Positions 6,229 through 49,325 of a DNA stretch of 64,000 nucleotides are shown here, piece by piece. This stretch comes from a virus. The stretch is from positions 1-64,000 of IMG/VR virus record IMGVR_UViG_3300012924_000001. One strand, given 5' to 3'. The notes under the pieces are model-generated. The model made no database searches, was not told the origin of the DNA, and saw nothing but the letters and a program-made list of their open reading frames with translations. The first letter of the stretch is position 1. Every line of letters starts with the position of its first letter. The position numbers and the translations under genes are program-made.

Positions 6229-6261
6229 TTTGAATGAGTATAATTTACTTATCTTGCGACT

Positions 6262-6326
6262 ATGTTTTTTTTTATTTAGAAAAATGAGAGATGGCACCCC
6301 CTGGCTATTTTTAGCTGGGGGTTTTT
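6262..6326 (+). ncRNA. candidate sRNA A
   Basis: TTTG(6229)-N17-TATCTTGC(6250); terminator 6296-6326. Confidence 0.6.
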
Positions 6327-6392
6327 GTCTCTGTGGTCCAGTATTAACTATCTGATTTGGATAGTATGGGTAGAGTAAGTATATTTGGAAAG

Positions 6393-6450
6393 TTATTTAA
6401 TTTATTTTATTATGTTTATGTGAAACATCCTACTTTTCCAAGTGGGGGGT
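6393..6450 (+). ncRNA. candidate sRNA B
   Basis: TTTG(6356)-N20-TATATTTG(6380); hairpin 6429-6446, weak U tract. Confidence 0.5.
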
Positions 6451-6468
6451 TGGCTTATTTTGCACTGT

Positions 6469-6525
6469 ATAGTGCAATGTTTATACACAACGAATCGCCC
6501 AGGTCAGTTTTGGTCTGGGCTTTTT
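6469..6525 (+). ncRNA. candidate sRNA C
   Basis: TATTTTGC(6456); terminator GCCCAGGTCA-gttt-TGGTCTGGGC-T5. Confidence 0.55.
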
Positions 6526-6575
6526 ATAGTTTATCCTACTTTCATTATTTTACAATAAACAATAAAGATAAATTT

Positions 6576-6836
6576 ATGGGCAATAAAGAAAGAGAATCAC
6601 GTCTAGTTTATCGTATGAATACATACTGTATTATGTATGTCGATAGCGCTACTAACGACTCAATAAAAGTATTAGAAGTGCTAACACTTCCACATTATAG
6701 GTTAGATCAAGATATAATAATTGATGGGATTATGTATAAGGTTATTGATACGGCTGATCACATTGACACCGAAGATTTTTCATACATAATATCTGTTCTG
6801 GTTGAACTTGTGGATGATTCCGAATTAGAAGATTGA
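6576..6836 (+). CDS. acidic hypothetical protein
   Basis: 3' part of ORF 6357..6836; ATG after A-rich leader; upstream part overlaps sRNA cassettes. Confidence 0.6.
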   Translation: MGNKERESRLVYRMNTYCIMYVDSATNDSIKVLEVLTLPHYRLDQDIIIDGIMYKVIDTADHIDTEDFSYIISVLVELVDDSELED

Positions 6837-6839
6837 ATT

Positions 6840-7079
6840 ATGGACAATATTGCAATTTTCAAGACTCGTTTAAGGCGATTGGGGATTGAGGTAGAGTTTT
6901 TCAGCAACTATCCTTGGATCTACCTGGAAAAGGTAAATGGAATAAGAGTAAATGAGCGATACCATGCCAATCATGGATTCACGGCATTCTGGTACACCAA
7001 AGACGGGCCTGAGATATCTGACATTGGAGAGGTGTTCAAGGTCATAAGAAAAACACTTTTATCGAAGGATTTTACGTAA
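6840..7079 (+). CDS. hypothetical phage protein (NYPWIYL motif)
   Basis: ORF track; tight packing. Confidence 0.7.
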   Translation: MDNIAIFKTRLRRLGIEVEFFSNYPWIYLEKVNGIRVNERYHANHGFTAFWYTKDGPEISDIGEVFKVIRKTLLSKDFT

Positions 7080-7120
7080 AAATTAGGTTATAAAATATCC
7101 TTTCAGTATTATTGCAATAA

Positions 7121-7180
7121 TAGATATAAAAAATAAGGTTATGAACGATATCCCGGTATTCTTATCGGGATACATTTATT
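7121..7180 (+). ncRNA. candidate sRNA D, or leader hairpin of the HigA-like gene
   Basis: Weak ATTATTGC promoter; TATCCCGGTA-ttct-TATCGGGATA hairpin at 7149-7172. Confidence 0.35.
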
Positions 7181-7201
7181 TATGTTACAAATACAATAAC
7201 C

Positions 7202-7543
7202 ATGGATAAATCATTTGACCCTCATGATGAGCGAACCGTGCTATCCTGTCCTGGAGATACGCTTTTAGAGACTATGGAGATTTATGGCATAAGTAAAGAA
7301 GCGTTGGCTCATAGTTTAAAGATGTCTACAGGGCAGGCTCAGCAATTATTGGATGGTGTGCTTCCACTTACCGAAGAGATCGCAATAGGGCTGGAAAGGC
7401 TTGTTAAAATTGATAAGCAGTTTTGGATTAACAGTGAGGAGCTTTATAGAGAAAAATTAAAACAGATCACTCAGGCTGAGAATGAACAGACACTGGATTG
7501 TGTAGGGAATAAGATATATCAACTTGGCCGAAAAAAGAAGTAA
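7202..7543 (+). CDS. HigA/VapI-like antitoxin HTH protein (orphan)
   Basis: PGDTLLETME..ISKEALA..LLDG..LTEEIAIGLERL..QFWINSE..Y pattern. Confidence 0.8.
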   Translation: MDKSFDPHDERTVLSCPGDTLLETMEIYGISKEALAHSLKMSTGQAQQLLDGVLPLTEEIAIGLERLVKIDKQFWINSEELYREKLKQITQAENEQTLDCVGNKIYQLGRKKK

Positions 7544-7546
7544 CAA

Positions 7547-8071
7547 ATGACTGATCATGATGTGTTTATTCAAGAGATTGCAGACTTACTCTTAGAAAAA
7601 GCAAAAATTGAAAGAGAAAAGCAAGCACTACCTCCATCTTGTACTATAATTGGAATGGATAAAAATGGACACTCTGCCGTTGCCCCACTAATCGGCACTC
7701 CTGATTTTTTCAGTGGTCATCTGAGTATAAAATACCGATTCCCTGCAATAGTAAGAAAGTGTTGTCAGGGATTGAAGACGAAGGGGGTTACGCCAATAGG
7801 AATTATTACCATCATAGATATATGGTTTACGTATTACCTTACTCCAGGGAAAGGAGAAATTGTATTTGAGAAGACTATGCCGTCTCAATCTCCAAATAAA
7901 ATGGAAGCACTTGTGCGAAGAATCGATAAAAAAAATCAAGCTATTTTTTTATTAACCCCTTATGAGTCGATTGACAAAAAAATAGTGTATTCAAGCAGTA
8001 TTCAGCCTGATGCACAGACAGGGATGGCGTTTGTAGATTTACCAAAATATCTTTTCCCTTCAGACTTATAA
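7547..8071 (+). CDS. hypothetical protein
   Basis: ORF track. Confidence 0.7.
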   Translation: MTDHDVFIQEIADLLLEKAKIEREKQALPPSCTIIGMDKNGHSAVAPLIGTPDFFSGHLSIKYRFPAIVRKCCQGLKTKGVTPIGIITIIDIWFTYYLTPGKGEIVFEKTMPSQSPNKMEALVRRIDKKNQAIFLLTPYESIDKKIVYSSSIQPDAQTGMAFVDLPKYLFPSDL

Positions 8072-8088
8072 AGGAAATATCTGTATAT

Positions 8089-8295
8089 ATGACAAGAACC
8101 CTTATTAAATTTCGCGTAGTGACAGATGGAATGGCTGTTCATCATGAATACTGGCACAGACTTTTTTGGTTTGTAGGCTATTGGTTGCCATATAAAAGTA
8201 CTGCGTATAACAATCGAGATCAGATAAGAGAAATAGAAAGAATAATAGCCGCGTTTGTGAAAGATCCAGATGGAAAAGACATCCCTGTTATATAA
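8089..8295 (+). CDS. hypothetical protein
   Basis: ORF track. Confidence 0.55.
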   Translation: MTRTLIKFRVVTDGMAVHHEYWHRLFWFVGYWLPYKSTAYNNRDQIREIERIIAAFVKDPDGKDIPVI

Positions 8296-8356
8296 CAAAA
8301 CACCTCCCAAGAAAAGGAGGTGCAGAAGGTATGGTGATAATTCAAAAGAAAAATTA
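8296..8356 (-). ncRNA. candidate sRNA E (minus strand)
   Basis: Minus-strand TTTG-N19-TATATTTA (8392 to 8362); hairpin CACCTCC/GGAGGTG followed by TTTT. Confidence 0.6.
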
Positions 8357-8466
8357 CGATGTAAATATAGGATATCCGGAGATATTGACAAAATAAAAAG
8401 CATCAATAAACATGACCCATTTTAAAATACAGTTTTGGTAGTTTATTAACTATTAAAACTGGCTCA

Positions 8467-8712
8467 ATGAAAAGACCTTATTATCTTAGAGATTCTGCTA
8501 AGAGGAACAGATGGGTAAAGGCTCATACTATTCGTAAATATAGGCATAGGATTAATCAGCTGGTAAGTCTGTATTGTAGAAACAAAAGGTATCTACTATT
8601 TTATCAGTCTGATCTGGAATGGGAGAACGAACCTGCTGATCCTATACATGGCTGGAATGAGTTACATCTGCCGCAATGGAAAGATATTAATGATCCCTGG
8701 TCTTGGGATTAA
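8467..8712 (+). CDS. hypothetical protein with basic N-terminus
   Basis: ORF track; terminator at ~8738-8772. Confidence 0.6.
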   Translation: MKRPYYLRDSAKRNRWVKAHTIRKYRHRINQLVSLYCRNKRYLLFYQSDLEWENEPADPIHGWNELHLPQWKDINDPWSWD

Positions 8713-8803
8713 AAACTTTATATAGTTGGATTTATGCTCTCTGGCTAATCTTGGCCGGGGGATTTTATTTTTGGAGATAAGAAAAAAGGTTATCTTTGAC
8801 ATC

Positions 8804-8862
8804 TTCGAACAAATCACTCTATAACGAATATGATAGCCCCCAATAGGTCTCTATTGGGGGGA
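8804..8862 (+). ncRNA. candidate sRNA G, or leader hairpin
   Basis: TTTG(8770)-N17-TATCTTTG(8791); 10-bp stem at 8837-8860 without U tract. Confidence 0.45.
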
Positions 8863-8871
8863 AATTAAATC

Positions 8872-9540
8872 ATGTTAGGGCCTAGTAATATGAAACATAT
8901 GAGCGTATCACCGTTGGAGTTGTTACTATTGGACAAGGTTCTATTAAATGAAGATGGTCTTCCCAAAATATTACCCGCTGCAACGTATAACAATATTCCA
9001 CATGAACTGCTCCAAGCTTGGACTAATATACGAGGTATTTATCAGGTAATTACAAAAGAACAAGTAGAGTGGACAAAAATGAAAATTGCTGATAGGTCTG
9101 CAATTGAAATATGTGCTGGATATGGCACCCTGGGACGAGCATTGCAGATTCCTTTTACAGATGTTAAATTACAAGAGGATGAATCTATCGCTTCAATATA
9201 TAGAAAGCACAAAACGTTTACTATCAACTATCCAAAAGATGTAATTAAAATGGAGGCTATTGAGGCTATAAGGCATTATAGACCACAGGTAGTAATAGGT
9301 TGTTTTGTTACTCAATGGGGGTCACATGAAATGCCCCTTGCGCCGTCATCTCCCTATGGACCAAAAGAATGGGAATTTTTTGATGAAGGGGTAGAGACTT
9401 ATATAAACTTTGGCAACAAGGCACCTCATTTTAATAAACGCCTTTATGCAATGCCGCACGAAGAACTTTGGCTTCCGTGGTTGGTAACAAGGTGTAATTA
9501 TCCAAATTTAAATCGCGTATGGATCTTTAATAAAAAATAA
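8872..9540 (+). CDS. putative class I SAM-dependent methyltransferase-like protein
   Basis: Motif-I-like AIEICAGYGTLGRAL. Confidence 0.55.
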   Translation: MLGPSNMKHMSVSPLELLLLDKVLLNEDGLPKILPAATYNNIPHELLQAWTNIRGIYQVITKEQVEWTKMKIADRSAIEICAGYGTLGRALQIPFTDVKLQEDESIASIYRKHKTFTINYPKDVIKMEAIEAIRHYRPQVVIGCFVTQWGSHEMPLAPSSPYGPKEWEFFDEGVETYINFGNKAPHFNKRLYAMPHEELWLPWLVTRCNYPNLNRVWIFNKK

Positions 9541-9582
9541 AATGTTGTTTTTTATTTATAATAAAGTATTATATTGCACGTA

Positions 9583-9647
9583 TTATTAACAACCGGGGAA
9601 TAAGCATTTAAACAGGCCTCACCTAGAAATAGGTGAGGTTTTCTTTT
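9583..9647 (+). ncRNA. candidate sRNA H
   Basis: TATATTGC(9570); terminator CCTCACCTA-gaaa-TAGGTGAGG-TTTTCTTTT. Confidence 0.6.
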
Positions 9648-9681
9648 ATAGAAGATTTTGTTATATTGCAATAAACATCTA

Positions 9682-9987
9682 ATGCGCTCACCAATACCGG
9701 GATACGAGTCTTATACTATCACAGAAGAGGGCAAAGTATATAATAAGCATGGTCGTCAAGTTCATCCTTATGTACATGAATCCGGATATCTGCGCCTCCA
9801 ATTAAGAAAAGAGCATAAGACCAAGCCACTTTTTGTCCATAAGCTCGTTGCCCTTACCTTCATACCCGATCCAGGCGATCTGCCGAATTTGAGGCCAATA
9901 GACGGCAATAAACGTAATCTGCGTTATTCGAATTGGGAGCGGTATCAAAAGAATAAAATTAGTCTCTGTAGTGATATTGCTGAATAG
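9682..9987 (+). CDS. degenerate NUMOD4/HNH endonuclease-like protein
   Basis: IPGYESYTITEEGKV..GYLRLQL..VHKLVALTFI; catalytic HxDGNKxNN reads PIDGNKRNL. Confidence 0.75.
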   Translation: MRSPIPGYESYTITEEGKVYNKHGRQVHPYVHESGYLRLQLRKEHKTKPLFVHKLVALTFIPDPGDLPNLRPIDGNKRNLRYSNWERYQKNKISLCSDIAE

Positions 9988-10032
9988 TCAATTTTATTTT
10001 TTTGTTCTCTAAATAAATTTTACTTTAGATCA

Positions 10033-10102
10033 TTGCACCTAAAGGCTGCAATAAATATTGATTACAAAGAACGGCCCCGCTAAATCTTTAGTGGGGGATT
10101 TA
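10033..10102 (+). ncRNA. candidate sRNA I
   Basis: TTTG(10001)..TACTTTAG(10021); 5' hairpin plus CCCCGCTAAA/TTTAGTGGGG stem. Confidence 0.45.
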
Positions 10103-10168
10103 AAAAATTACACCTCCCAAGAAAAGGAGGTGTTTTGTGTAACGCCGTAAGACCTCATAGAAATCTTG
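10102..10168 (-). ncRNA. candidate sRNA J (minus strand, convergent with I)
   Basis: Minus-strand TACCTTGC (10174-10181); same 23-bp hairpin as sRNA E. Confidence 0.55.
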
Positions 10169-10210
10169 CATTTGCAAGGTAATATTTTCTAACAAATAAA
10201 AACATATAAA

Positions 10211-10435
10211 ATGAGCGACAAAATAATCGGTCCATTAGAGGTGACTCCGACTCCAGATGATGCCTTTAAAAAGTTAGAACTTTTGGATCGTAGCTTTATG
10301 ATAAGCAAGATATTTCACGATTTTGTTTTAGATCACCTTTTTACTTCAGAGGATGAGGAGATTTCCACATTAGCAAATAAAATTTCTGAAGACCTGGGCG
10401 AATTATATCAGCTTATTGGCGCAAAGGCTATGTAA
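10211..10435 (+). CDS. small acidic hypothetical protein
   Basis: ORF track; A-rich start context. Confidence 0.7.
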   Translation: MSDKIIGPLEVTPTPDDAFKKLELLDRSFMISKIFHDFVLDHLFTSEDEEISTLANKISEDLGELYQLIGAKAM

Positions 10436-10478
10436 AAAAGATTTTGTGGTTATTATTATATCCCATAACTTCGCTTTG

Positions 10479-10557
10479 TTGTTCTCTACCTCCGTAGATA
10501 ATTAACGAAACTGCGAAAATATTCCTCAGTCCTTTTTAGGTACTGAGGTTTTTTTTT
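10479..10557 (+). ncRNA. candidate sRNA K
   Basis: TTTG(10443)-N19-TAACTTCG(10466); terminator 10524-10557 with T9. Confidence 0.65.
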
Positions 10558-10591
10558 GAGAAAGCGAAAGACCAACCATAAGTTGCTCATG

Positions 10592-10692
10592 TGCAGCTCT
10601 CCAGACCCCGTAAGGTTTGGACTTTTTATTTTGGCACTCTATAAATACGTGGAATTTTTATCGCCCTGGCAGATTTCTGCTAGGGTTTTTCT
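10592..10692 (+). ncRNA. candidate sRNA L
   Basis: TTTG(10555)-N20-TAAGTTGC(10579); hairpins 10600-10621 and 10664-10685, each followed by a T run. Confidence 0.6.
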
Positions 10693-10740
10693 TTTGAGAT
10701 TCTGAGAAAGGAATGGATTTTTTACTTTATCTTACAGTTC

Positions 10741-10839
10741 TTCCAATTGTGGAACTTTGGGATAGTGCTCTTTATTGTCAGAGCTTTGGTCATAGTAACA
10801 GTAACATAAGACTGCGCTTATTCTTGGGCGCAGTTTTTT
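10741..10839 (+). ncRNA. candidate sRNA M
   Basis: TATCTTAC(10728); two small hairpins and terminator 10811-10839. Confidence 0.6.
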
Positions 10840-10876
10840 ATTTGGTAGAATCAAATAATTTTTTATATTTACGCTG

Positions 10877-10958
10877 AATTGGTTTAAATCCTTTTTATAG
10901 ATAGGGACTTTTCTATTATTATAGAATTGAATAACCTGGATTTTTATCCGGGTTTTTT
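10877..10958 (+). ncRNA. candidate sRNA N
   Basis: TTTG(10841)-N19-TATATTTA(10864); terminator 10933-10958. Confidence 0.65.
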
Positions 10959-11027
10959 ACTATATAATTTGTATAATAATAGTTGGAATCTTTTCCGTAT
11001 ATTCGACCCGTTATAATAATACTCAAA

Positions 11028-11432
11028 ATGACTATCTCAACTTCGGGCCTCCTGACATCTGTATGTCTTATTATAATTCTCATCTCCGTACTTGGGTCAC
11101 ACTTCTTTTTTAAGATAAGGATATTGAGACGTCAACTGGACAAGTACAAGAAAAAGATAATATTTGCCGATGAGAAGGATCTGAATGAGTATGTTAACTC
11201 AAAAGTTATCCATATCAAAAACGCTACGTATAATTTGGCTTTTGAGCAAGCTACGGCGGCAGTAAAGAGCTATCCAGCTGTAACAGATACAAATGCTCTT
11301 GCAAAAACTATTTGTTCTTTGTTAGAAAAAAAGTCTTTTTATACTGAAGAGCAAGCTAAACAATTAGCATTAATGGCTTTTACTTGGGATCGTGATTTTG
11401 AATCTTTTTGGGAAGGCAATGAGGAGATATAG
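11028..11432 (+). CDS. membrane-anchored hypothetical protein
   Basis: N-terminal TM helix; promoter TATATTCG at 10998. Confidence 0.65.
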   Translation: MTISTSGLLTSVCLIIILISVLGSHFFFKIRILRRQLDKYKKKIIFADEKDLNEYVNSKVIHIKNATYNLAFEQATAAVKSYPAVTDTNALAKTICSLLEKKSFYTEEQAKQLALMAFTWDRDFESFWEGNEEI

Positions 11433-11790
11433 TACAGCATTTGAGCGAGATTTTTGTTGGTACTTATCTAAGCGGCATGTCTTTACATTTGATGGCCGCT
11501 TGCCCAGGGATATACCATTTGATAGAAACGGTATGGATGGTAGGAAGGCCTTCTTTCTTTATGATAGTCATGGAAAGGTAATGCCAACCAGACATCCACT
11601 TCTTGTGGCTTCTTTAATGCGTACAAAGGGATCTGTTAATTTACACATAAAAATGTGGGCAGAAGATCGCGCTAATGGCATTTTACCAAGAGTGCTGTTT
11701 GATGATATCTGTGTACAGTTGAATCTACTTGATTGGATCATAGAGGCTGTAGAAAAACAAAAGGGAAGATATTATACAAAAGCGGATTGA
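11419..11790 (+). CDS. hypothetical protein
   Basis: ORF track 11392..11790; ATG start chosen. Confidence 0.65.
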   Translation: MRRYSTAFERDFCWYLSKRHVFTFDGRLPRDIPFDRNGMDGRKAFFLYDSHGKVMPTRHPLLVASLMRTKGSVNLHIKMWAEDRANGILPRVLFDDICVQLNLLDWIIEAVEKQKGRYYTKAD

Positions 11791-12308
11791 TGCCTATAGA
11801 ATATTATCACAAAATATCTCCTTTCCGTAAGGACGTTAATAACTATCTGGACGCGGTGCGGAAAGAAACAAAGAGGGTAGTATATTTAATGGATCGTGAT
11901 TCGCATGAATTAATTATAGAACCAGGGAGTAGTGACTTGATGAGATTGGTTCATGTAAATGGGTCCAAGTTGAGTATAAATGATAACCAGCAATACATAA
12001 AGCTCTTTACTTCCGGATTACCATTGTTAAAGGAGTTGTCTGCTCCGGGGTTAAAAGTGTTTATCTGGATACTCGCTAATCTGAAGCCCAAACAAGACCT
12101 GATAATACTTGTACCAAACAAAGTAGCCAAAGAGTTAGCGTATAAGATAACAAAGCCTATACATGATGGTGTTAAGGAGTTGATTAATCATCAAATTATT
12201 GCTCGGGCGTATACAGGAAATAGAAATAACCCAGCTTATTACATAAACCCTGCTGTGATATTTAACGGGAATAGGAGACATCTGTGGGATGATAAATATC
12301 ATAAATAG
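11790..12308 (+). CDS. RepL-like winged-helix protein
   Basis: YIKLF..LSAPGLKVF..GVKELI..IIAR..YYINPAVIFNG pattern. Confidence 0.65.
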   Translation: MPIEYYHKISPFRKDVNNYLDAVRKETKRVVYLMDRDSHELIIEPGSSDLMRLVHVNGSKLSINDNQQYIKLFTSGLPLLKELSAPGLKVFIWILANLKPKQDLIILVPNKVAKELAYKITKPIHDGVKELINHQIIARAYTGNRNNPAYYINPAVIFNGNRRHLWDDKYHK

Positions 12309-12314
12309 TTAAAC

Positions 12315-12620
12315 ATGACAAAGAGAATAGACAATTTATTGCGGGTGGTTGCTCCTGATCAACAACAAGAGATCGATGTTAAGCGGGATATTGCCAGAGC
12401 CATATGTTATGGCATGAAGGCAAAGGGTTTAACGCAGGCACAGCTGGCGGTAGCGTTAGATAAGTATGATTCAACCATATCCATTTGGCTGAGTGGAAAG
12501 CATAACTTCACTATCGAAACATTATTGGAGATAGAGAAGGCTCTTGATATAAAACTCCTTTCTTATAATGATGATCAGGATAGGCATAATTGGCTCAAGG
12601 TCGATCCGAGAGAAATATAA
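12315..12620 (+). CDS. XRE HTH protein (antitoxin-like)
   Basis: KGLTQAQLA..ISIWLSGKHNFTIETLLEIEKALD. Confidence 0.8.
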   Translation: MTKRIDNLLRVVAPDQQQEIDVKRDIARAICYGMKAKGLTQAQLAVALDKYDSTISIWLSGKHNFTIETLLEIEKALDIKLLSYNDDQDRHNWLKVDPREI

Positions 12621-12951
12621 GATCTATGCACTATTAAATAAGATCTTTAGAAGGTATCCGGATGCCGAATTAGTATCTGGAGGTGCGGAAGGGCCTGATT
12701 CCTTTGCATATGATTATTGTATCGATTATGGCCATGATATTATGGTATGTGGTGCTGGTTGGAAGGTACATGGCAAGAAGGCTGGATTCATAAGAAATAT
12801 GCGTATTGCTAAAAGAGCCGATATAATAATAGCATTTTGGGATGATACGTCCGGTGGTACCAAGCATTGTATGGATTATGCTAAAAATATGGGCAAAAAA
12901 GTATACAAGTATGATTTTAAAACTGATAAATTAATTTTATATGGAGCTTAA
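12568..12951 (+). CDS. SLOG-family protein (YspA/DUF2493-like)
   Basis: IIGSR..VSGGAEGPD..GKKAGFIRN..IAFWD..SGGT motifs. Confidence 0.8.
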   Translation: MMIRIGIIGSRSIREKYKIYALLNKIFRRYPDAELVSGGAEGPDSFAYDYCIDYGHDIMVCGAGWKVHGKKAGFIRNMRIAKRADIIIAFWDDTSGGTKHCMDYAKNMGKKVYKYDFKTDKLILYGA

Positions 12952-13249
12952 TACCGCACTTGATGTTATTAAGAAAGAGCTTTCCCAGAATCAGGCTTTC
13001 TTCACTGCTTACGAAAGTATGATATTTTACTGTGTATATCGTGAAATTAATAAGCATGGCACATATGAAGTATTTACAGCCAATGAACAAGTTTTAAAGG
13101 ACATAATTTTGGAGGGAGCGAGAAATTTTCTGAAAGAATGGGTCGGTCTGGATGAAAGACCAATGATCTCCAGCTTAGCTGCTCTCAATGAACTCAAGCA
13201 GTCCCAGGATGAACCCTTAAAAAAAGACCTAAAGAGTAAAAAGAAGTAA
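12941..13249 (+). CDS. hypothetical protein
   Basis: ORF track; overlapping packing. Confidence 0.65.
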   Translation: MELNTALDVIKKELSQNQAFFTAYESMIFYCVYREINKHGTYEVFTANEQVLKDIILEGARNFLKEWVGLDERPMISSLAALNELKQSQDEPLKKDLKSKKK

Positions 13250-13253
13250 CACA

Positions 13254-13285
13254 GATATGGACGCTATGTTAAAACATAGCTTATG
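13254..13285 (+). repeat. 32-bp hairpin element, copy 1, abutting start codon
   Basis: GATATGGACGCTATGTTAAAACATAGCTTATG; 31/32 identical to 14665-14696. Confidence 0.85.
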
Positions 13286-13627: not shown

Positions 13628-13631
13628 TTGT

Positions 13632-14659: not shown

Positions 14660-14664
14660 TATAT

Positions 14665-16733: not shown

Positions 16734-16788
16734 TCTATAAAATTGGTATATTTGTTTTAACTAAATTTGTTACAACAAATATTAGGAG

Positions 16789-22987: not shown

Positions 22988-23893
22988 ATGGCCGGACCGG
23001 GCAGACCTCCTAAGACCATTCAGGATCTGGATGCTCAATTAGGAGCAGATGGACAAATTCAAGAGGTGGATGTTTTAGAGCCTCCTAAGAAAAATAGACA
23101 AAAGGATCGTGCAACTTATACGTTTGAGATGGTGGGACCATTCCCCAAAGATCCTCAGAACGGTACAATAAGATATCCTGGGTTAAGCCTGGATAACTGT
23201 CAGGTAGTGTTTGATGAAGAAACAGGAGTCCAGCGGACTGCGAGACTTATTCGCGGCCTTAATACGTTTTGGATGGATGAACAAAAGGACATCGATCCAA
23301 AATATATTGCCCGTAATAAGCCTACATTGAGCTTTAACAACGGCCAGATACACATACCGGCTACAGAAGCGCTTACTGTACGTTTTCTCATGCTTCGTTC
23401 GGATTTTGTTGGTTGTAAACAGCCAACTGTAAATCGTAAGCCACGCTATAAGCTGGTGGACACCGAAGCTGAAGAGGCTTTAATATTCGATTTGAAGAAA
23501 AAGGTTAAAGATGCTGCTGACAAAGCCTGGGGAACGAGGATGGAAGATCTTATCCCGCACGCTGAATACCTGGGTATACGTATGATCAACGATAAGGGCT
23601 TCCCTAAGTCTGAGGATGCATTGCGTACAGACTATGTAAATAAAGCGGAGGCACAGCCAGATCTTTTCCTTCGTACCTATGAGAACCCCAAGGTGAAAAT
23701 GTATGGTCTTGTGAAGAAGGGATTTGAGCAGAACGTGGTTATCTACCTGGAAGGTCAGGCGCTCTGGGCTGATACAAAGTCTATGATTTGTCAAGTTCCT
23801 CATTCCAGGCAGGACAATGTGGCCGACTATCTGGCCGAATTGATGCTGACCAAGGAAGGGTACGCGCTCAGGTCACGTTTAGAAAAAGCATAG
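22988..23893 (+). CDS. hypothetical protein of the capsid module
   Basis: 301-aa ORF followed by terminator. Confidence 0.75.
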   Translation: MAGPGRPPKTIQDLDAQLGADGQIQEVDVLEPPKKNRQKDRATYTFEMVGPFPKDPQNGTIRYPGLSLDNCQVVFDEETGVQRTARLIRGLNTFWMDEQKDIDPKYIARNKPTLSFNNGQIHIPATEALTVRFLMLRSDFVGCKQPTVNRKPRYKLVDTEAEEALIFDLKKKVKDAADKAWGTRMEDLIPHAEYLGIRMINDKGFPKSEDALRTDYVNKAEAQPDLFLRTYENPKVKMYGLVKKGFEQNVVIYLEGQALWADTKSMICQVPHSRQDNVADYLAELMLTKEGYALRSRLEKA

Positions 23894-23931: not shown

Positions 23932-23958
23932 ACCCCGGATTTTTATCCGGGGTTTTTA
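23932..23958 (+). terminator. intrinsic terminator
   Basis: ACCCCGGAT-tttt-ATCCGGGGT plus T run. Confidence 0.8.
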
Positions 23959-23973
23959 TTTACGGAGGGCAAT

Positions 23974-24054
23974 AAAAAACCCCCTCCTATAAAGGAAAGG
24001 GGCGTTTCACACCACACCTTTAACATCCATGTAAAATCGCCGGACATTAAAGTA
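23974..24054 (-). ncRNA. candidate sRNA O, or 3' UTR of GroES-like gene
   Basis: Minus-strand TAAATTTAC promoter-like (24059-24067); terminator 23974-24002. Confidence 0.45.
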
Positions 24055-24088: not shown

Positions 24089-24727
24089 TCAAAATTCATA
24101 TTCTAATCCTTCCACCGTAGCTCCCAAGAAATCCCGATCAAAGTTTACTCTTATAATAGACTGGTGAACATTCTCCCAAACATACTTCAGTTCTACGTCT
24201 GCATGTTTGGCTATCGCAATAACATCCCCTTTCTTTATCTCATCGACCTGATCAGGCACCTGTTCTACATATACAAGGTTATCCCATTTTTCTTTTGTAA
24301 TACCGCCTATCACTCCTGAAGGAGTAATAGGGATGGGTTTGTAGATACGCCTGCAAATGACGCTCTTATCGATGCAGTAAATCTCTCCGGTAGGCTTCAC
24401 TCCAAGCCAACATAAGGGCTTTTCAATAGCAAACAACCTTTCGCCCTCATCTAACAGTGATCCCATCCCAAAGACCTCTTTCCGCTCGTTTTCAAAGGCA
24501 TTGTGCTGCGTAAGGACATAATCTCCCATTTCTATCTCATCGCAGGATGTAACAGCACGCCCTACAGTAGGATTGCCATCCCATCCATTTTCTTTCCAAT
24601 CCTTTTCTCCCATGTAGATATCCAGGTGAGAGCCATCTAGCATCTTAATTCTATGGCTTGTTTTTTGGGCAGGCCATACCGCAACCAAAAGTCGCTTTTG
24701 GTTAATGTGATTATTAGGTACTTGCAT
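24089..24727 (-). CDS. GroES-like co-chaperonin (tandem domains)
   Basis: Two GroES-like units: IEMGDYV..HNAF and TPSGVI..IKKGDVI. Confidence 0.65.
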   Translation of the reverse strand: MQVPNNHINQKRLLVAVWPAQKTSHRIKMLDGSHLDIYMGEKDWKENGWDGNPTVGRAVTSCDEIEMGDYVLTQHNAFENERKEVFGMGSLLDEGERLFAIEKPLCWLGVKPTGEIYCIDKSVICRRIYKPIPITPSGVIGGITKEKWDNLVYVEQVPDQVDEIKKGDVIAIAKHADVELKYVWENVHQSIIRVNFDRDFLGATVEGLEYEF

Positions 24728-40330: not shown

Positions 40331-40333
40331 AGA

Positions 40334-41394: not shown

Positions 41395-41408
41395 GATTTT
41401 CCCTCAAA

Positions 41409-45488: not shown

Positions 45489-45498
45489 AACTAATTAT

Positions 45499-45999
45499 AT
45501 GCTTACGGTTCCTTTTTGCTTAGACGTCCTTAGTGACCTTTTATTTTATGATTCTTTTCCAGATGGGTTCATAATTTTTATAACTAATAGCCAGAATAAA
45601 CCACCTGTTCCTTATAGATGGGATTTGACATCTACGGCTACAGTAGACGGTGTTAATGTTATAAAGCCCACTACCATTATTTCAGGTGATCCCGGAAGGT
45701 GGATCAATCAGATTGGTGGCAATACAAGGGTGGAAATTATTACCGGAACAACGGACGCCAATGGTAATATAACAACAACATGGGCGACTGCGTTTGCGGG
45801 TATTCCTCATCTGTCCCCTACTATTGAAGGAGGAGCGGCAAATCAAACCTTAACAGTGACTAGTAACACGGCCTCTGGATTTACTGTAAATGTAAAACAA
45901 AGGAACAGTGTTTCCTTGCTCGGAATAGATGTATTATTGTCCACCACTGTGAATGTGGCTGGAATATTCGTTAGGATAATGGCAACAGAAAAAATATAA
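45499..45999 (+). CDS. short fibre/adaptor protein
   Basis: YRWD.TSTATVDG..VI...GRW module plus beta-rich C-terminal domain. Confidence 0.6.
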   Translation: MLTVPFCLDVLSDLLFYDSFPDGFIIFITNSQNKPPVPYRWDLTSTATVDGVNVIKPTTIISGDPGRWINQIGGNTRVEIITGTTDANGNITTTWATAFAGIPHLSPTIEGGAANQTLTVTSNTASGFTVNVKQRNSVSLLGIDVLLSTTVNVAGIFVRIMATEKI

Positions 46000-46003
46000 T
46001 GTC

Positions 46004-46264
46004 ATGGCAGACAAAAAAACAATCATCAGTATTCTGCATCCTACGCCTGCATGGGCTAATTGGGCCTTTAGGATTGTTTTCCTATTAAATAAGGTAGTGA
46101 TTGGTATGGTTGCATCAGATCCAGGAATTGATGCAGAAACAAAAGTGCGTATAGGGTTGTATCTCTCAGGCCTGGATACCTTTGTATGGGGTATTAGTAG
46201 GATTTTTGGAGTGAAAGTACAAGATGAGGAAGCCCCTAAGCCAGAAAACACACAAATTAAATGA
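46004..46264 (+). CDS. holin-like small membrane protein
   Basis: TPAWA motif, two hydrophobic segments, charged tail; position after tail genes. Confidence 0.5.
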   Translation: MADKKTIISILHPTPAWANWAFRIVFLLNKVVIGMVASDPGIDAETKVRIGLYLSGLDTFVWGISRIFGVKVQDEEAPKPENTQIK

Positions 46265-47217
46265 GAATATTATTATTGTTATGTAGTCTTTTGCAGTTAA
46301 ATATTTGTTTTGCTCAGGGCTATGAGTTGATTAAGATTCCGACAGACTCTTATCATGGTGTCTATACTATGATAGCTACCCCTCCTGACTATAAGGATAG
46401 TGTTGATAAGACATATCCAACGATCATTTATTTTCATGGTGGTGGCGCTAAGGGGACAGACGGAACAAAGTTATTTATTGAAGCAATCCCGCAGCGCATA
46501 AAAAATGGTTGGCAACCCCAGGCCATTAGTCCCTTGACCGGAAAATTAGAATACTTTATTGTAATCGCAGCCCAGGATCAATGGGGCACCCCGTGGCCTT
46601 CTACGATGACTCCAGTAATGAAGTACCTCAAAGAGGTGAAACATCTCCGTATTGACACAAATAGGCTCTATACGACCGGCCTTAGCTTCGGCGGCTCCGG
46701 ATGTATGCTTTTTGCCGGATGGGACTCTATAGCGCCTAAAAAGGTGGCCGCTGTGCTTTCCTGTTCACCTACGGCAGATGTTAACCTGATCCAACCCAAC
46801 TTTAAATATATTGCAAAAGAGAATTTCCCTGTTTGGTTTTACTGTGGTAACCAGGATGGATCTGCTACAGAAAATGCTACACGTTATAGCAAGGAGTTAA
46901 ACCATTTGGCAGACAGCTTAGGAAATGGTCCAGAATCGTGGGTCCAGATGTATGCAGGTGGCCATTGTTGTTGGAATGATCTGTATAATTCAAAAGTAAA
47001 AACCAACTTCAATGGAGAGCAGATCGATATGTATCAGTGGTTTTTGACCAATAGTAAAAAAGTTCTTCCTCCCGATCCTACCCCTACCGACTATCAAATT
47101 TGTATTGGGAATGCGCAGGATATAAAGAAGGTGATCGTATTGCTAAAAAGTGGGAAGTACGTAGAATATGATAGTAGTGCGCTATCCATTCCTAAAATAC
47201 AGATTCAGCTAAAATGA
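46261..47217 (+). CDS. secreted alpha/beta-hydrolase (esterase)
   Basis: Signal peptide ending CFA-Q; YFHGGG, TGLSFGG nucleophile elbow, GNQD, GGH. Confidence 0.85.
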   Translation: MRILLLLCSLLQLNICFAQGYELIKIPTDSYHGVYTMIATPPDYKDSVDKTYPTIIYFHGGGAKGTDGTKLFIEAIPQRIKNGWQPQAISPLTGKLEYFIVIAAQDQWGTPWPSTMTPVMKYLKEVKHLRIDTNRLYTTGLSFGGSGCMLFAGWDSIAPKKVAAVLSCSPTADVNLIQPNFKYIAKENFPVWFYCGNQDGSATENATRYSKELNHLADSLGNGPESWVQMYAGGHCCWNDLYNSKVKTNFNGEQIDMYQWFLTNSKKVLPPDPTPTDYQICIGNAQDIKKVIVLLKSGKYVEYDSSALSIPKIQIQLK

Positions 47218-47348
47218 CCGCTTGCCCTAAATTTTTTTTCGTATTTAATATAAATAACCTAAATTTAAAGCCAGATTTTAACCTATCGGCTTGGAAGACA
47301 TTACATAAAATCCTATGTTTATTATTCTTCACCTCTAAAATAAGGGTT

Positions 47349-47675
47349 ATGCATGTTGGTAATCTGCTTATAGATCGAGAAACATTATCAATAAGGATAC
47401 CAGGAACAGACCTAGCAAAAGAATGCACCCTGCGCGAGTTTCAGATATTAGAATTTTTATCTAATCATCAAAATCAGGCGGTATTATTTTCAGATCTAAT
47501 TGAAAAAGTGTTCCCAGTAGGAGACTTTTATGCAAAAAGGACCACTGAAGTCTATTTAAATATGCTTCGGAAGGTATTGTGCTGGGATGGCGGCCATTTC
47601 ATTAATATAATAAAAAAGGACAATATAATATCACTTACCGTTTCCCCCATTGCTGCTGAACGGCCGACAGTATAA
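47349..47675 (+). CDS. stand-alone OmpR/PhoB-type winged-helix DNA-binding protein
   Basis: TLREFQILEFL..LIEKVF..RTTEVYLNMLRK; no receiver domain. Confidence 0.75.
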   Translation: MHVGNLLIDRETLSIRIPGTDLAKECTLREFQILEFLSNHQNQAVLFSDLIEKVFPVGDFYAKRTTEVYLNMLRKVLCWDGGHFINIIKKDNIISLTVSPIAAERPTV

Positions 47676-47795
47676 GTTTTTTATCTTCACTATATGTACA
47701 GATTATTTGGTTAATCCTGAATAATCCAGTAATTTTCATAACTCAATAACCTACTCTACTCACGCTTTGTTTTTTTAAGAAAAAATACATTAAAT

Positions 47796-48347
47796 ATGAT
47801 GCAGGCATTTTCAGCTCCTACAGCGAGAGCTATTATTACACATGCAAAGAACAACTTGACAGATCTATTAATTGACATCACAAAGATTAGTGATTACGAA
47901 CGCCACAAGGATGCGCGTTCTGTTAATGAAAAGATACTCGCAGCAACCAGGACATTACACGATATAGACAAGCAGTTGTTCCAGCAGATAATGATAAGGC
48001 TCGAAGAAATAGAAACATCTGAGAACAAACGAGCTATCATGTATATTAATGGGAAGGGTATACTCCAGTTAACGGAGTATTTTTTTATGTCTACACATCT
48101 TGAGTCCGGGTTGAAGTTTCTCCCTCATATCAATAAAGAGAACGAAAGGGATAATGCTATATACTTCGTTGAGGCTACGGATGGTTTTCGTCTGGGCGAA
48201 AAGACAATGAATTTAGCGTCTGTTCTGGAACGCACCCATATATCATGCCCCAGTAAAGTCTTGTGGTCTCCGGTTAATGAGACAATTGAACAACATGAAG
48301 GGCAAAGAGCTTTTCGCTTAGAATTTTCGCAACCAATTTACGCATGA
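47796..48347 (+). CDS. hypothetical protein
   Basis: ORF track; A-rich start. Confidence 0.65.
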   Translation: MMQAFSAPTARAIITHAKNNLTDLLIDITKISDYERHKDARSVNEKILAATRTLHDIDKQLFQQIMIRLEEIETSENKRAIMYINGKGILQLTEYFFMSTHLESGLKFLPHINKENERDNAIYFVEATDGFRLGEKTMNLASVLERTHISCPSKVLWSPVNETIEQHEGQRAFRLEFSQPIYA

Positions 48348-49243
48348 GTACAAAGATACAGAATGAAGGGCAACTTCAGATCACCAAACGTCATCTACGC
48401 AGCTTTAAGGAATCGTGGCGGCAACTAATAACAGAGCCTATTCCTGAGAGCGTTCACCCTCTCGTGCATCAGGCGCAGATAGATGCTATTGAATACAAGA
48501 TAAAGGATTTTGAGCAAGAGATTGATGAATATAATAGGTATCAAGAATCATTAAATAAAAAGACCTTACTTACAATTAAACCCGTACAGATGTTAAAACT
48601 TAAACCTTTAGCCGTACCCTGGAGGCCTTCTAAAGATTTTGATCGAATTACTATTAATGAAATAGGTCGAATCAATTTTTGGTCTAGCAAGATTATGAAT
48701 GAGTTTGAATTTAATGGAGTAGAATTCTTTTCGTTTGCCATGGATACAGCTGATGAGGCTTCTAATAGTTCTGCCGTATTTTTGATGCCGAATTATGATC
48801 CTGAACAAAACAGTAGAATTAATCTTAACAGGACTGATAAACAGCAACCTTATATTATCATGAAAACACCATTGGATGTGTATCGTATACATTATCCAGC
48901 TACGGTTGATTACTCTATCATAAAATACCCTATCTTTGAATGGAGTGAAGAGGAGCAGAAGGAGGTATGGGCTTATGATATACCTGTGATAAAGCTGGAT
49001 ACTTCCTTTAGGAAGGCTAATAGTATACCTCTCACTAGAGATGAAATAGTTCAGCATAAAGGGACATTAGCGGCAAGCACTGAGCCACCACCACCACCAC
49101 CTCCTCCTTCACCAGAAAGCACTAAACCAAATCTGCCCCTCCCGCCACCACCTCCTCCTAAAAGAGCAATAGCAAAGACAACCGGAAAGAGCGCACAACA
49201 AAAAGGAAAAAAAAGAGGCCCATATAAGAAAGGGAAGAGCTAA
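48344..49243 (+). CDS. mosaic protein: antitoxin-like N-terminal coil, unknown domain, poly-Pro and basic tail
   Basis: IQNEGQLQITK..HPLVHQAQIDAI..EQEIDEY; PPPPPPP; KKRGPYKK. Confidence 0.6.
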   Translation: MSTKIQNEGQLQITKRHLRSFKESWRQLITEPIPESVHPLVHQAQIDAIEYKIKDFEQEIDEYNRYQESLNKKTLLTIKPVQMLKLKPLAVPWRPSKDFDRITINEIGRINFWSSKIMNEFEFNGVEFFSFAMDTADEASNSSAVFLMPNYDPEQNSRINLNRTDKQQPYIIMKTPLDVYRIHYPATVDYSIIKYPIFEWSEEEQKEVWAYDIPVIKLDTSFRKANSIPLTRDEIVQHKGTLAASTEPPPPPPPPSPESTKPNLPLPPPPPPKRAIAKTTGKSAQQKGKKRGPYKKGKS

Positions 49244-49259
49244 TTCATTATCTTTGGAA

Positions 49260-49325
49260 TATGGGTTGTGACAGGAAACGCCCATAACAAATGATAATGC
49301 CCACTGTAACAGGTGGGCATTTTTT
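49260..49325 (+). ncRNA. candidate sRNA P
   Basis: TATCTTTG(49249); ATGGG/CCCAT hairpin; terminator AATGCCCAC/GTGGGCATT plus T run. Confidence 0.55.

What the first reader, a model, noticed from the sequence alone, without database searches (positions are those of the whole stretch)
6229..49325. About 15 sRNA-like cassettes genome-wide, several with AACG(A) before the hairpin
Seen: the same layout recurs at 6262, 6393, 6469, 7121, 8296(-), 8804, 9583, 10033, 10102(-), 23974(-) and 49260, besides the four at 10.4-11.0 kb. AACG(A) lies shortly before the terminal stem in C (AACGAAT 6489), G (AACGAAT 8823), D (AACGAT), I (AACG), O (AACG) and K (AACGAAA). Established: Bacteroidota lack Hfq and use RRM-type RNA-binding proteins with sRNAs. 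Inference: a phage sRNA repertoire sharing a protein-loading motif. B, D, G and I have weak U tracts and may instead be leaders or attenuators.
Basis: partly seen in the sequence, partly recalled or inferred. Interest (0 to 1): 0.8.

Follow-up and report, generated by a model that had tools for sequence, protein, structure and literature searches.

The report
Promoter-hairpin cassettes bracketing swappable phage genes
The repeated "promoter box, short spacer, hairpin" units in this soil phage are real, but they look like the regulatory joints between swappable accessory genes seen in other phages, not a family of small RNAs sharing an AACG protein-binding tag.

Summary
The window is the first 64 kb of a 78,334-bp temperate phage with terminal repeats. 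Its start-codon contexts and promoter boxes are of the Bacteroidota type.

**Layout: confirmed.** Terminator-like hairpins are about three times more frequent than in shuffles and are crowded into 6.2-11 kb. In six units a -7-type box (TAnnTTTG or TAnnTTGC) starts 41-48 nt before the stem. A 70%-identical relative (L007) shows the same spacing.

**AACG: weak.** It occurs in 6 of 16 upstream windows here, but in 1 of 18 in L007. It sits 0-18 nt from the stem and is not over-represented in the genome.

**Key comparison.** A 91-96% identical soil contig (X4) keeps every cassette. It lacks or replaces whole ORFs between them, with breakpoints mostly at start or stop codons, promoter boxes and terminator U tracts.

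**Individual units.** D and G are mRNA leaders. P is an ordinary convergent terminator.

**Best reading (0.55).** These are promoter-plus-stem-loop cassettes in the style of T4 PeSLs or morons. They insulate and shuffle ORFan genes, and the units without an ORF are empty slots.

**A true small-RNA set remains possible (0.25).** The strongest single candidate is the antisense unit E(-), whose promoter and terminator are conserved in L007.

No RNA data were available. This scan has reported PeSL-like arrays before on other phage DNA.

The parts
4223..4263 (+). Terminator hairpin 4223-4246 with a T7 tract, followed directly by the box TATATTGC at 4256-4263. This is a composite terminator-promoter and the left edge of a segment replaced in X4.
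4953..4960 (+). Second TATATTGC box. It is the right edge of the segment replaced in X4 (4267 to 4960).
6229..6326 (+). Unit A: TTTG 6229-6232, 17 nt, box TATCTTGC 6250-6257, hairpin 6298-6321, T5. It has no ORF. X4 keeps it although the upstream ORF 5809-6225 is absent there.
   Evidence: (z -4.98)
6356..6455 (+). Unit B: TTTG 6356-6359, 20 nt, box TATATTTG 6380-6387, then a weak hairpin at 6428-6445 without a U tract.
   Evidence: z -0.75
6456..6553 (+). Unit C: box TATTTTGC 6456-6463, palindrome 6460-6477, AACGAAT 6489-6495, terminator 6497-6520 with T5. A separate box TATTTTAC at 6546-6553 then serves ORF 6576-6836. The X4 breakpoint at 6525 is the end of the U tract.
   Evidence: (D15)
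7107..7201 (+). Unit D: box-like TATTATTG 7107-7114 inside a 14-nt palindrome, AACG 7144-7147, hairpin 7149-7172 with no U tract, then ATG at 7202. It is an mRNA leader.
8292..8392 (-). Unit E(-): TTTG 8392-8389, 19 nt, box TATATTTA 8369-8362, a 5' segment of about 33 nt, hairpin 8323-8300, U tract 8299-8292. It is antisense to the spacer between ORFs 8089-8295 and 8467-8712. L007 conserves it, with a perfect TATATTTG box.
   Evidence: (z -3.71)
8738..8871 (+). F terminator 8738-8761 of ORF 8467-8712. Then unit G: TTTG 8770-8773, box TATCTTTG 8791-8798, AACGAAT 8823-8829, hairpin 8838-8861 with no U tract, ATG at 8872. G is an mRNA leader, and X4 keeps it without its ORF.
9548..9669 (+). Unit H: box TATATTGC 9570-9577, terminator 9614-9641 with a U tract. 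A duplicated promoter copy at 9640-9670 (box 9662-9669) serves the HNH ORF 9683-9987. X4 keeps 9548-9649 and lacks the HNH gene.
   Evidence: (D7)
10021..10181 (.). Unit I: box-like TACTTTAG 10021-10028, AACG 10070-10073, hairpin 10074-10097. Next to it is the two-way hairpin J at 10110-10133, which matches E at 23 of 24 positions. J's minus-strand box TACCTTGC is at 10181-10174.
   Evidence: (D5)
10436..10982 (+). Tandem run of five terminators: K 10524-10548 with T9, L 10600-10621, M 10663-10686, N 10808-10837, N2 10933-10954. It holds a box-like TAACTTCG at 10466-10473, the box TAAGTTGC at 10579-10586 and AACGAAA at 10504-10510. N lies in the 3' end of a 54-aa ORF (10713-10877). X4 keeps the whole run. 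L007 has counterparts of K, N and N2.
23932..24003 (.). Convergent terminator pair: plus-strand hairpin 23932-23953 after ORF 22988-23893, and minus-strand hairpin 24003-23979 (P) after ORF 24089-24727. This is an ordinary operon end.
49249..49326 (+). Unit O: box TATCTTTG 49249-49256, starting 6 nt after the stop codon of ORF 48344-49243. AACG 49277-49280, hairpin 49296-49321 with T5. The HTH-regulator ORF starts at 49361 with no other box before it.

Best explanation
The 4-11 kb stretch is the phage's variable accessory-gene region, made up of ORFans, an HNH endonuclease and a HigA-like regulator. It is built from small regulatory cassettes.

**How a cassette works.**
- Each cassette has a host sigma-A-type promoter: TTTG, 17-20 nt, then TAnnTTTG or the local variant TAnnTTGC.
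- A GC-rich stem-loop forms about 30-35 nt into the transcript.
- Where a U tract follows (A, C, F, H, K, L, M, N, N2, O, E-, J-), the hairpin works as an intrinsic terminator. It closes the upstream unit and insulates neighbours.
- Where no U tract follows (B, D, G, I), the hairpin stays as a leader stem-loop on the next ORF's mRNA.

**How the region evolves.**
- The boxes and hairpins recur in a few sequence families. ORFs are gained, lost and exchanged between them, while the cassettes stay.
- Units that now hold no ORF are empty slots. They may release short RNAs as a by-product.

**Shown and inferred.**
- Shown: the anatomy, the regular spacing, the hairpin families and the ORF-level mosaic against X4.
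- Inferred: promoter activity, termination, and recombination as the cause of the swaps.
For: **Hairpin excess and clustering.**
- One search found 36 terminator-like sites in 1-20 kb, against 12.9 +/- 3.7 in shuffles.
- One search shows them clustered between the small ORFs of 6.2-11 kb.

**Box-to-stem spacing.**
- The box-to-stem distance is 41-48 nt in six units.
- L007 shows the same range.

**Boxes behave as promoters.**
- The same boxes also sit 21-30 nt before ORF starts. Examples are box 9662 before the ATG at 9683 and box 6546 before the ATG at 6576.
- L007 shows this too: boxes at 458, 3066 and 5777 precede ATGs at 481, 3092 and 5801.

**Mosaic against X4.** The X4 contig is 57,308 nt long and 91-96% identical.
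- It retains 6244-6525, 8645-8872, 9548-9649, 9958-10190 and 10432-13000.
- ORFs 5809-6225, 8872-9540, 9683-9957 and 10198-10410 are absent.
- Two segments are replaced: 4268-4959 and 6526-8087.
- The breakpoints fall at the two TATATTGC boxes (4267, 4960), at the ends of U tracts (6525, 9649) and at start or stop codons (5808, 6226, 8088, 8872, 9548).
- X4 keeps the last 22-30 nt of two lost ORFs, which suggests that units without an ORF arise by deletion.

**Hairpin families within and between phages.**
- E and J match at 23 of 24 positions.
- N2 and the hairpin at 23932 match at 19 of 22.
- A and L007 8392 match at 20 of 24.
- L007 1711 and 8531 match at 22 of 22.

**Selection acts on the plus-strand RNA.** Changes between the hairpin copies at L007 6255 and 6406 keep pairing through G-U wobble.

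**Other points.**
- D and G run into ORFs without a U tract.
- The ORFs are ORFans, as in hyperplastic regions.
- PeSLs are defined and shown to shuffle ORFans in PMC2839356 and PMC4122927.
Against: - About half the units have no ORF and still pair a promoter-like box with a strong terminator. A pure gene-insulation role does not need that.
- The hairpin lies downstream of the box and is therefore transcribed. In T4-type PeSLs it lies between or over the promoter hexamers.
- ORF-free terminator runs sit at matching positions in L007, at about 70% identity. That suggests retention, not just recent decay.
- E(-) and J(-) point against all the neighbouring genes, so they insulate nothing.
- AACG placement is nominally non-random in this genome.
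- Several X4 breakpoints lie at codons rather than inside repeats. Homologous exchange between cassettes is therefore not shown.
- Only one close relative was available.
Confidence: 0.55

Rival explanations
1. The units are a real repertoire of phage small RNAs. The units without an ORF (A, C, H, I/J, K, L, M, N2, E-, J-) are sRNA genes. Each has a single-stranded 5' seed, often with a small 5' hairpin, and a terminator. They act by base pairing on phage or host mRNAs. E(-) works like an OOP-type antisense RNA.
For: - The units have a promoter box plus an intrinsic terminator and no ORF.
- The folds show a 5' region, a single-stranded linker and a terminator, with z-scores from -1.85 (C) and -2.3 (L) to -5.0 (A).
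- L007 conserves E(-): TTTG, 20 nt, a perfect TATATTTG, the 5' end, the hairpin and the U tract.
- The 5' segment of E(-) matches 71275-71290 at 16 of 16 positions, and about 21 of 22 by eye. That makes it complementary to the mRNA of ORF 71157-71543 (E 4.6e-4; 0 of 200 shuffles).
- X4 and L007 keep ORF-free hairpin runs.
- The FopS sRNAs of Bacteroides have the same plan of 5' seed plus terminator (PMC11697453).
Against: - Nothing shows that they are expressed.
- No Rfam match was found.
- The 5' segments share no sequence, and apart from E they have no above-chance complementarity within the phage.
- The A-C block is less conserved against X4 (about 91%) than the neighbouring coding DNA (94-96%).
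- X4 appears to have created units without an ORF by ORF deletion, so such units need no function of their own.
- The AACG motif is not reproduced.
- The E(-) target match could not be tested in a relative.
Confidence: 0.25
2. The hairpins are promoter-proximal attenuators. Early promoters fire into terminators at about +30, and downstream genes are expressed only when a phage or host antitermination factor lets polymerase read through. That factor may recognise the hairpin and its flank. This would give temporal or lysogeny-dependent control.
For: - The hairpin starts at a fixed distance from the box.
- O lies between its box and an HTH-regulator gene, with no other box before the ATG.
- Tandem terminators precede ORF 11028 in this phage and its counterpart in L007.
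- AACG lies in the predicted single-stranded linker of C, G, I and K.
Against: - The genes after C and H have their own boxes (6546 and 9662).
- No alternative antiterminator fold is evident in the 30-nt leaders.
- No antiterminator protein was recognised in the proteins scanned here.
- No flank motif is conserved in L007.
Confidence: 0.12
3. The pattern is chance. AT-rich intergenic DNA with ordinary terminators happens to hold box-like words and AACG near hairpins.
For: - Relaxed -7 words are common: 83 TAnnTTTG in the genome, only 17 of them intergenic.
- AACG fails both replication and the objective-set test.
- B is not significantly structured.
Against: - Hairpins are about three times more frequent than in shuffles.
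- The spacing is reproduced in L007.
- X4 retains the cassettes across ORF indels.
- The hairpins fall into sequence families.
Confidence: 0.04

Closest known systems
PeSLs (promoter-early stem-loops) of T4-type phages (Arbiol et al. 2010, PMC2839356; Comeau et al. 2014, PMC4122927)
   Same: - Small composite units of a host-type promoter and a GC-rich stem-loop terminator fill the intergenic spaces of an ORFan-rich variable region.
- Close relatives differ by insertion, deletion or replacement of ORFs between retained units.
- The units insulate each gene transcriptionally.
   Different: - The promoter here is of the Bacteroidota -33/-7 type.
- In most units the stem-loop starts 41-48 nt downstream of the -7 box and is transcribed, instead of lying between or over the hexamers.
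- Copies share only the 8-nt box and 20-24 nt hairpin families, not about 100 bp.
- About half the units hold no ORF.
- Mini-circles and reporter activity were not tested.
Morons of lambdoid prophages (promoter-ORF-terminator units; Hendrix and co-workers, from my own knowledge and as discussed in PMC2839356)
   Same: - Self-contained accessory transcription units with their own promoter and terminator.
- Present or absent between related temperate phages. This phage has a tyrosine integrase.
   Different: - Morons are not thought to move through their flanking signals.
- Here the flanks recur as families and persist without the ORF.
FopS/GibS sRNAs of Bacteroides thetaiotaomicron bound by the RRM protein RbpB (PMC11697453)
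   Same: - Multicopy units in a host group that lacks Hfq.
- Each has a sigma-A-type promoter, a single-stranded 5' stretch and a Rho-independent terminator.
   Different: - FopS copies share a conserved 5' seed within a 41-nt motif. These units share no 5' sequence.
- No Rfam match was found.
- AACG is not reported there as a binding motif in the passages read.
Lambda OOP RNA (a short antisense RNA with its own promoter and intrinsic terminator; from my own knowledge), compared with unit E(-) only
   Same: - A unit of about 65-75 nt on the strand opposite to the surrounding genes.
- It has its own promoter and terminator and overlaps an intercistronic region.
   Different: - No sequence relation.
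- Expression and RNase III-type action were not tested.
- E(-) also has a possible trans site at 71.27 kb.

Membership tests
PeSL (T4-type promoter-early stem-loop cassette) | A composite of a host-type early promoter and an adjacent stable stem-loop, in the intergenic spaces of a variable, ORFan-rich region | tested here: met
   - Boxes with TTTG 17-20 nt upstream, together with hairpins.
- ORFan content.
- Tested by sequence only; activity was not assayed.
PeSL (T4-type promoter-early stem-loop cassette) | The stem-loop lies between the -35 and -10 boxes or overlaps the -10 box (figure legend in PMC2839356) | tested here: not met
   - The stem starts 41-48 nt after the start of the -7 box in A, C, G, H, J(-) and O.
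- Only the pair 4223-4246 / 4256 has the overlapping arrangement.
PeSL (T4-type promoter-early stem-loop cassette) | Copies are conserved over about 100 bp, giving a substrate for homologous recombination | tested here: not met
   - Repeats are 15-32 nt long.
- Hairpin families are 20-24 nt long.
PeSL (T4-type promoter-early stem-loop cassette) | Indels and replacements between close relatives are bounded by the cassettes | tested here: met
   - X4 joints lie at 4267/4960 (both just after TATATTGC), at 6525 and 9649 (ends of U tracts), and at 5808, 8088, 8872 and 9548 (ORF edges).
- All cassettes are retained.
- Only one relative was available.
PeSL (T4-type promoter-early stem-loop cassette) | Excised mini-circles, and promoter and terminator activity in reporters | not testable with these tools
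   This needs PCR and reporter assays.
Intrinsic (Rho-independent) terminator | A GC-rich stem-loop followed directly by a U tract | tested here: met
   - Met for A, C, F, H, K, L, M, N, N2, O, E(-), J(-) and P(-).
- Not met for B, D, G and I.
FopS/GibS-type RbpB-associated sRNA family | Match to the Rfam model, or a conserved 5' seed shared by the paralogues | tested here: not met
   - No hit reached a gathering score.
- The relaxed scan gave only terminator-driven hits with E of 0.09 or more.
- The 5' segments share no sequence.
FopS/GibS-type RbpB-associated sRNA family | Binding by an RRM-1 protein of the host | not testable with these tools
   This needs CLIP or EMSA. The host has not been isolated.
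OOP-like antisense RNA (unit E- only) | Own promoter and own intrinsic terminator, on the strand opposite to the flanking genes | tested here: met
   - The window has TTTG, 19 nt, then TATATTTA.
- L007 has TTTG, 20 nt, then TATATTTG.
- Both have the hairpin and a U tract on the minus strand.
OOP-like antisense RNA (unit E- only) | The RNA is made and lowers expression of the overlapped message | not testable with these tools
   No RNA run holds this phage.

The most novel reading that the evidence does not exclude
A temperate Bacteroidota soil phage encodes about ten independently transcribed 40-80 nt RNAs of one fixed design: a promoter, a seed of about 30 nt and a terminator. They are kept in relatives even where the neighbouring ORFs are lost. 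One of them is a conserved antisense RNA, E(-), which also pairs over 16-21 nt with the mRNA of a phage gene 63 kb away. This would be the first phage-borne sRNA repertoire described for a host group that lacks Hfq.
Probability: 0.2. Interest if true: 0.7.

Novelty: new variant of a known kind. Interest (0 to 1): 0.35.

Why it matters
- If the cassette reading holds, PeSL-style modular gene shuffling extends from T4-like coliphages to a temperate Bacteroidota soil phage with a different promoter grammar.
- The cassettes give a practical way to delimit accessory-gene units in such phages.
- The recurring TAnnTTGC box is a candidate promoter variant that can be tested directly.
- If some units are real RNAs, E(-) above all, they would be an entry point to RNA regulation in Hfq-less hosts.
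- The AACG idea should not be carried forward without new data.

Tried and rejected
**Searches that found nothing useful**
- Rfam at gathering score over the whole window found nothing. A relaxed scan of 4-11.2 kb gave only weak terminator-driven hits.
- A megablast of the region against GenBank phages found no match.
- Relatives sought through ORFs 5788-6228, 8872-9540 and 10983-11432 and through the 679-aa protein gave only distant loci or fragments in IMG/VR. GTDB genomes gave none. The intergenic DNA of those loci could not be aligned.
- The exact E/J hairpin has no match in IMG/VR. A degenerate version hit 8 unrelated phages, where it is a generic terminator.

**Expression and access**
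- No RNA holder is listed for this phage, so nothing can be said about expression.
The X4 contig could therefore not be read directly. Its differences beyond position 6333 are known only as indels and joints.
- The genome search could not draw relatives for a virus record. It does not hold the L007 record either, so the E(-) target site could not be tested in a relative.

**Other tests**
- tblastx of the ORF-free spacers against the related loci found no ORF remnants.
- The PADLOC scan found no defence families in the cassette ORFs.

**Readings considered and rejected**
- Integron-like attC cassettes: the breakpoints lie at codons and promoter boxes, not inside the hairpins.
- Nut-type sites: there are too many copies and no conserved boxA-like flank.
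- Sigma-70 hexamer promoters: 66 sites against 68 in shuffles.

Full report
**Context**

The window is bases 1-64000 of a 78,334-bp IMG/VR virus record with 93-bp direct terminal repeats. The phage is temperate: it has a tyrosine recombinase at 53783-55189.

Its host is very probably a Bacteroidota member.
- Only 4 of 117 called genes have a Shine-Dalgarno-like core. Random windows show such a core in 10% of cases.
- A reaches 72% at position -12 and 68% at -11 before start codons.
- Exact TAnnTTTG boxes precede the structural operons at 16747, 19387, 25126, 39211 and 64408.
- The DNA occurs in soil metagenomes.

**Observation: the layout is real**

Terminator-like hairpins in 1-20 kb number 36, against 12.9 +/- 3.7 in dinucleotide shuffles. 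My own scan puts about 14 strong ones in 6.2-11 kb and about 10 in the remaining 73 kb.

- Strict boxes of the form TAnnTT(TG|GC) start 41-48 nt before the stem in A (6250), C (6456), G (8791), H (9570), J on the minus strand (10181) and O (49249).
- One-mismatch boxes lie 42-58 nt before the stem in D, E(-), I and K.
- A scan statistic gives p = 0.03 for six of 20 box-hairpin distances falling in one 8-nt window.
- The same pre-set window holds 3 of 11 pairs in the relative L007 (p = 0.018).

The folds show a 5' part, a single-stranded linker and a terminal hairpin. Z-scores run from -2.3 to -5.0 in most units. C reaches only -1.85, and B is not significant at -0.75.

**Observation: AACG is weak**

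It occurs in 6 of 16 windows against a background of 0.05 (nominal p 8.6e-5). The family-wise p over all 256 4-mers is 0.007.

Several points weaken this result.
- With all 23 objectively called terminators the family-wise p is 0.08.
- AACG is not over-represented in the genome: 231 on the plus strand against 198 expected.
- Its distance to the stem is 0, 1, 4, 10, 16 or 15 nt in I, D, C, G, K and O respectively, counted from the end of AACG.
- C and G share the 7-mer AACGAAT in similar flanks, so they may be duplicates rather than independent cases.
- In L007, which has the same architecture, only 1 of 18 terminators has AACG upstream, against a background of 0.052.
- That one case is the counterpart of K, and its own paralogue in L007 reads AATG.

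I conclude that AACG is not a conserved feature of these units.

**What the units are: the comparison with X4**

Laying soil-metagenome contigs on 4000-13000 gave the most informative result. One run (X4) holds a 57,308-nt contig that is 91-96% identical and mosaic.

It keeps these stretches:
- 4000-4267
- 4960-5277
- 5395-5808
- 6244-6525 (units A, B, C)
- 8088-8596
- 8645-8872 (F, G)
- 9548-9649 (H; implied by the joints)
- 9958-10190 (I, J)
- 10432-13000 (K to N2 and the genes beyond)

These ORFs are missing:
- 5809-6225, cut exactly from the ATG to the codon before the stop
- 8872-9540
- the HNH endonuclease gene 9683-9957
- 10198 to about 10410

Two stretches are replaced by unrelated DNA: 4268-4959 by 487 nt, and 6526-8087 by 1605 nt.

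The breakpoints fall as follows:
- just after the two TATATTGC boxes (4267, 4960)
- at the ends of the U tracts of C and H (6525, 9649)
- at ORF edges (5808, 6226, 8088, 8872, 9548)

X4 still has the last 30 nt of the HNH ORF. By eye it also has a diverged remnant of the last seven codons of ORF 10211-10435. In at least these two cases, units without an ORF therefore seem to arise by ORF deletion. As a result, X4 carries F, G, H, I, J and K to N2 as about 1.25 kb of hairpin units with no ORF between them.

**A more distant relative**

L007 comes from a 74.6-kb metagenome contig and is about 70% identical in the shared genes. It has the same design.
- About 16 terminators lie in 10 kb of small ORFs.
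- TAnnTTGC boxes are abundant on the coding strand: 18 in the first 10 kb, many of them 21-26 nt before an ATG.
- It has its own ORF-free tandem runs at 6130-6546 and 9235-9557.

The hairpins fall into sequence families, both within and between the two phages.
- E and J match at 23 of 24 positions.
- N2 and the hairpin at 23932 match at 19 of 22.
- A and L007 8392 match at 20 of 24.
- L007 1711 and 8531 match at 22 of 22, and L007 6255 and 6406 at 21 of 24.
- K shares its stem with L007 6255 and 6406.

Between the 6255 and 6406 copies, both changes in the stem keep pairing through G-U. Selection therefore acts on the plus-strand RNA, as expected for terminators.

Short promoter duplications flank H (9548-9578 and 9640-9670). 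The promoter of ORF 6576 also resembles that of the HNH gene.

**Unit by unit**

| Unit | Reading | Basis |
|---|---|---|
| D, G | mRNA leaders | No U tract; the ATG follows 30 and 10 nt on |
| P | Terminator of the minus-strand operon 25063-24089, facing the plus-strand terminator at 23932 | |
| A, H, O | Box sits 6-30 nt after the stop codon of the upstream ORF and shares that ORF's terminator | |
| C | Followed by a separate box for ORF 6576 | |
| O | Stands directly before an HTH-regulator gene, with no other box | |
| N | Overlaps the 3' end of a 54-aa hydrophobic ORF | Only its last 16 residues resemble an L007 ORF, so coding and RNA constraint cannot be told apart |

**The best sRNA candidate**

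E(-) points against all the neighbouring genes. The window and L007 align through four features:
- a -33 TTTG
- a 19-20 nt spacer
- the -7 box, which is TATATTTA here and a perfect TATATTTG in L007
- the first bases of the transcript, the CCTCC/GGAGG hairpin and a minus-strand U tract

Its 5' segment also matches 71275-71290 at 16 of 16 positions, and about 21 of 22 with one indel by eye. That makes it complementary to the mRNA of the minus-strand ORF 71157-71543 (blastn-short E 4.6e-4; 0 of 200 shuffles). None of the other 15 units gave above-chance complementarity. I could not test this pairing in a relative.

**Mechanism I commit to**

Confidence is 0.55. These are promoter-plus-stem-loop regulatory cassettes of an accessory-gene region.
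- Host-type promoters start transcripts.
- A stem-loop at about +30 either terminates the transcript (where a U tract follows) or stays as a leader.
- The units insulate single ORFans.
- ORFs are gained, lost and swapped between retained units.
- Units without an ORF are empty slots that may release short by-product RNAs.

The anatomy, the spacing, the hairpin families and the X4 mosaic are shown. Promoter activity, termination and recombination at the units are inferred.

Rival readings:
- A true sRNA repertoire (0.25). It is helped by E(-) and by the persistence of ORF-free runs in L007.
- Antitermination-controlled attenuators (0.12).
- Chance (0.04).

**Comparison with known systems**

The closest published kind is the PeSL of T4-type phages. 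It is a composite of a sigma-70-like promoter and a terminator stem-loop in hyperplastic regions, and it mediates ORFan shuffling (PMC2839356 and PMC4122927).

This phage resembles PeSLs in location, in composition and in cassette-bounded indels. It differs on two defining points.
- The stem-loop is downstream of the promoter box, not between or over the hexamers.
- Copies share only 8-24 nt, not about 100 bp.

I therefore do not file it as a PeSL member. I call it a new variant of that kind, overlapping with the moron concept.

The FopS/GibS sRNAs bound by RbpB in Bacteroides (PMC11697453) share the plan of promoter, 5' seed and terminator. They are defined, however, by a conserved seed that is absent here.

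Earlier notes of this scan describe PeSL-like promoter-hairpin arrays in several other phages. My reading agrees with them, and I had reached it before seeing them.

**Limits**

- No RNA data exist for this phage.
- Only one close relative and one mid-distance relative were available.

Noticed in passing
window 6460-6477, 7106-7119, 10033-10051, 10165-10178: Inverted TTGCA/TGCAA half-sites overlap or follow the promoter boxes, with spacings of 8, 0, 9 and 2 nt. One is a perfect 14-nt palindrome at 7106-7119. They could be operators for one of the phage HTH regulators or small 5' RNA hairpins. TATTGCA/TGCAATA is enriched in intergenic DNA (12 of 32).
   Followed up: partly
window 8324-8346 (minus strand) and genome 71268-71290 (7.3 kb beyond the window end; L018): The 5' segment of the E(-) unit repeats a stretch inside the minus-strand ORF 71157-71543 at 16 of 16 positions (E 4.6e-4). 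An E(-) RNA would therefore pair with that mRNA. The ORF has no family match.
   Followed up: partly
window 10903-10916 and 42-55 (terminal repeat): A 14-nt stretch before hairpin N2 is the exact reverse complement of a stretch inside the 93-bp terminal repeat (E 0.01).
   Followed up: no
window 4256, 4953, 6250, 6456, 9570, 9662, 10579; L007 1-10000: The box variant TAnnTTGC (mostly TATATTGC) marks the accessory-gene region in both phages. The structural operons use the canonical TAnnTTTG. These may be two promoter classes, or a host-specific -7 variant.
   Followed up: partly
window 9683-9987: An HNH/NUMOD4 homing-endonuclease ORF sits between units H and I. It is absent from the 95%-identical X4 contig, except for its last 30 nt.
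   Followed up: partly
window 7202-8071: A HigA-like HTH protein (113 aa) is followed 3 nt later by a 174-aa ORFan. This may be an antitoxin-toxin or defence pair. In X4 the whole block 6526-8087 is replaced by 1605 nt of other DNA.
   Followed up: no
window 10713-10877; L007 9112-9282: A 54-aa hydrophobic ORF ends across hairpin N. Only its last 16 residues resemble an L007 ORF (E 4e-4), and several of the differences are synonymous. The conserved stretch may be coding, a terminator, or both.
   Followed up: partly
window 8300-8323 and 10110-10133, minus strand: The shared E/J hairpin reads CACCUCCUUUUCU on the minus strand. From memory, this resembles the 3' end of 16S rRNA. On the plus strand it offers a strong GGAGG, in a phage that otherwise avoids Shine-Dalgarno sequences. 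Not tested.
   Followed up: no
L008 and L009 (JGI soil contigs): Both contigs match window 11.1-14.4 kb in both orientations at 95-97% identity. They are probably fold-back assembly artefacts of a close relative.
   Followed up: no
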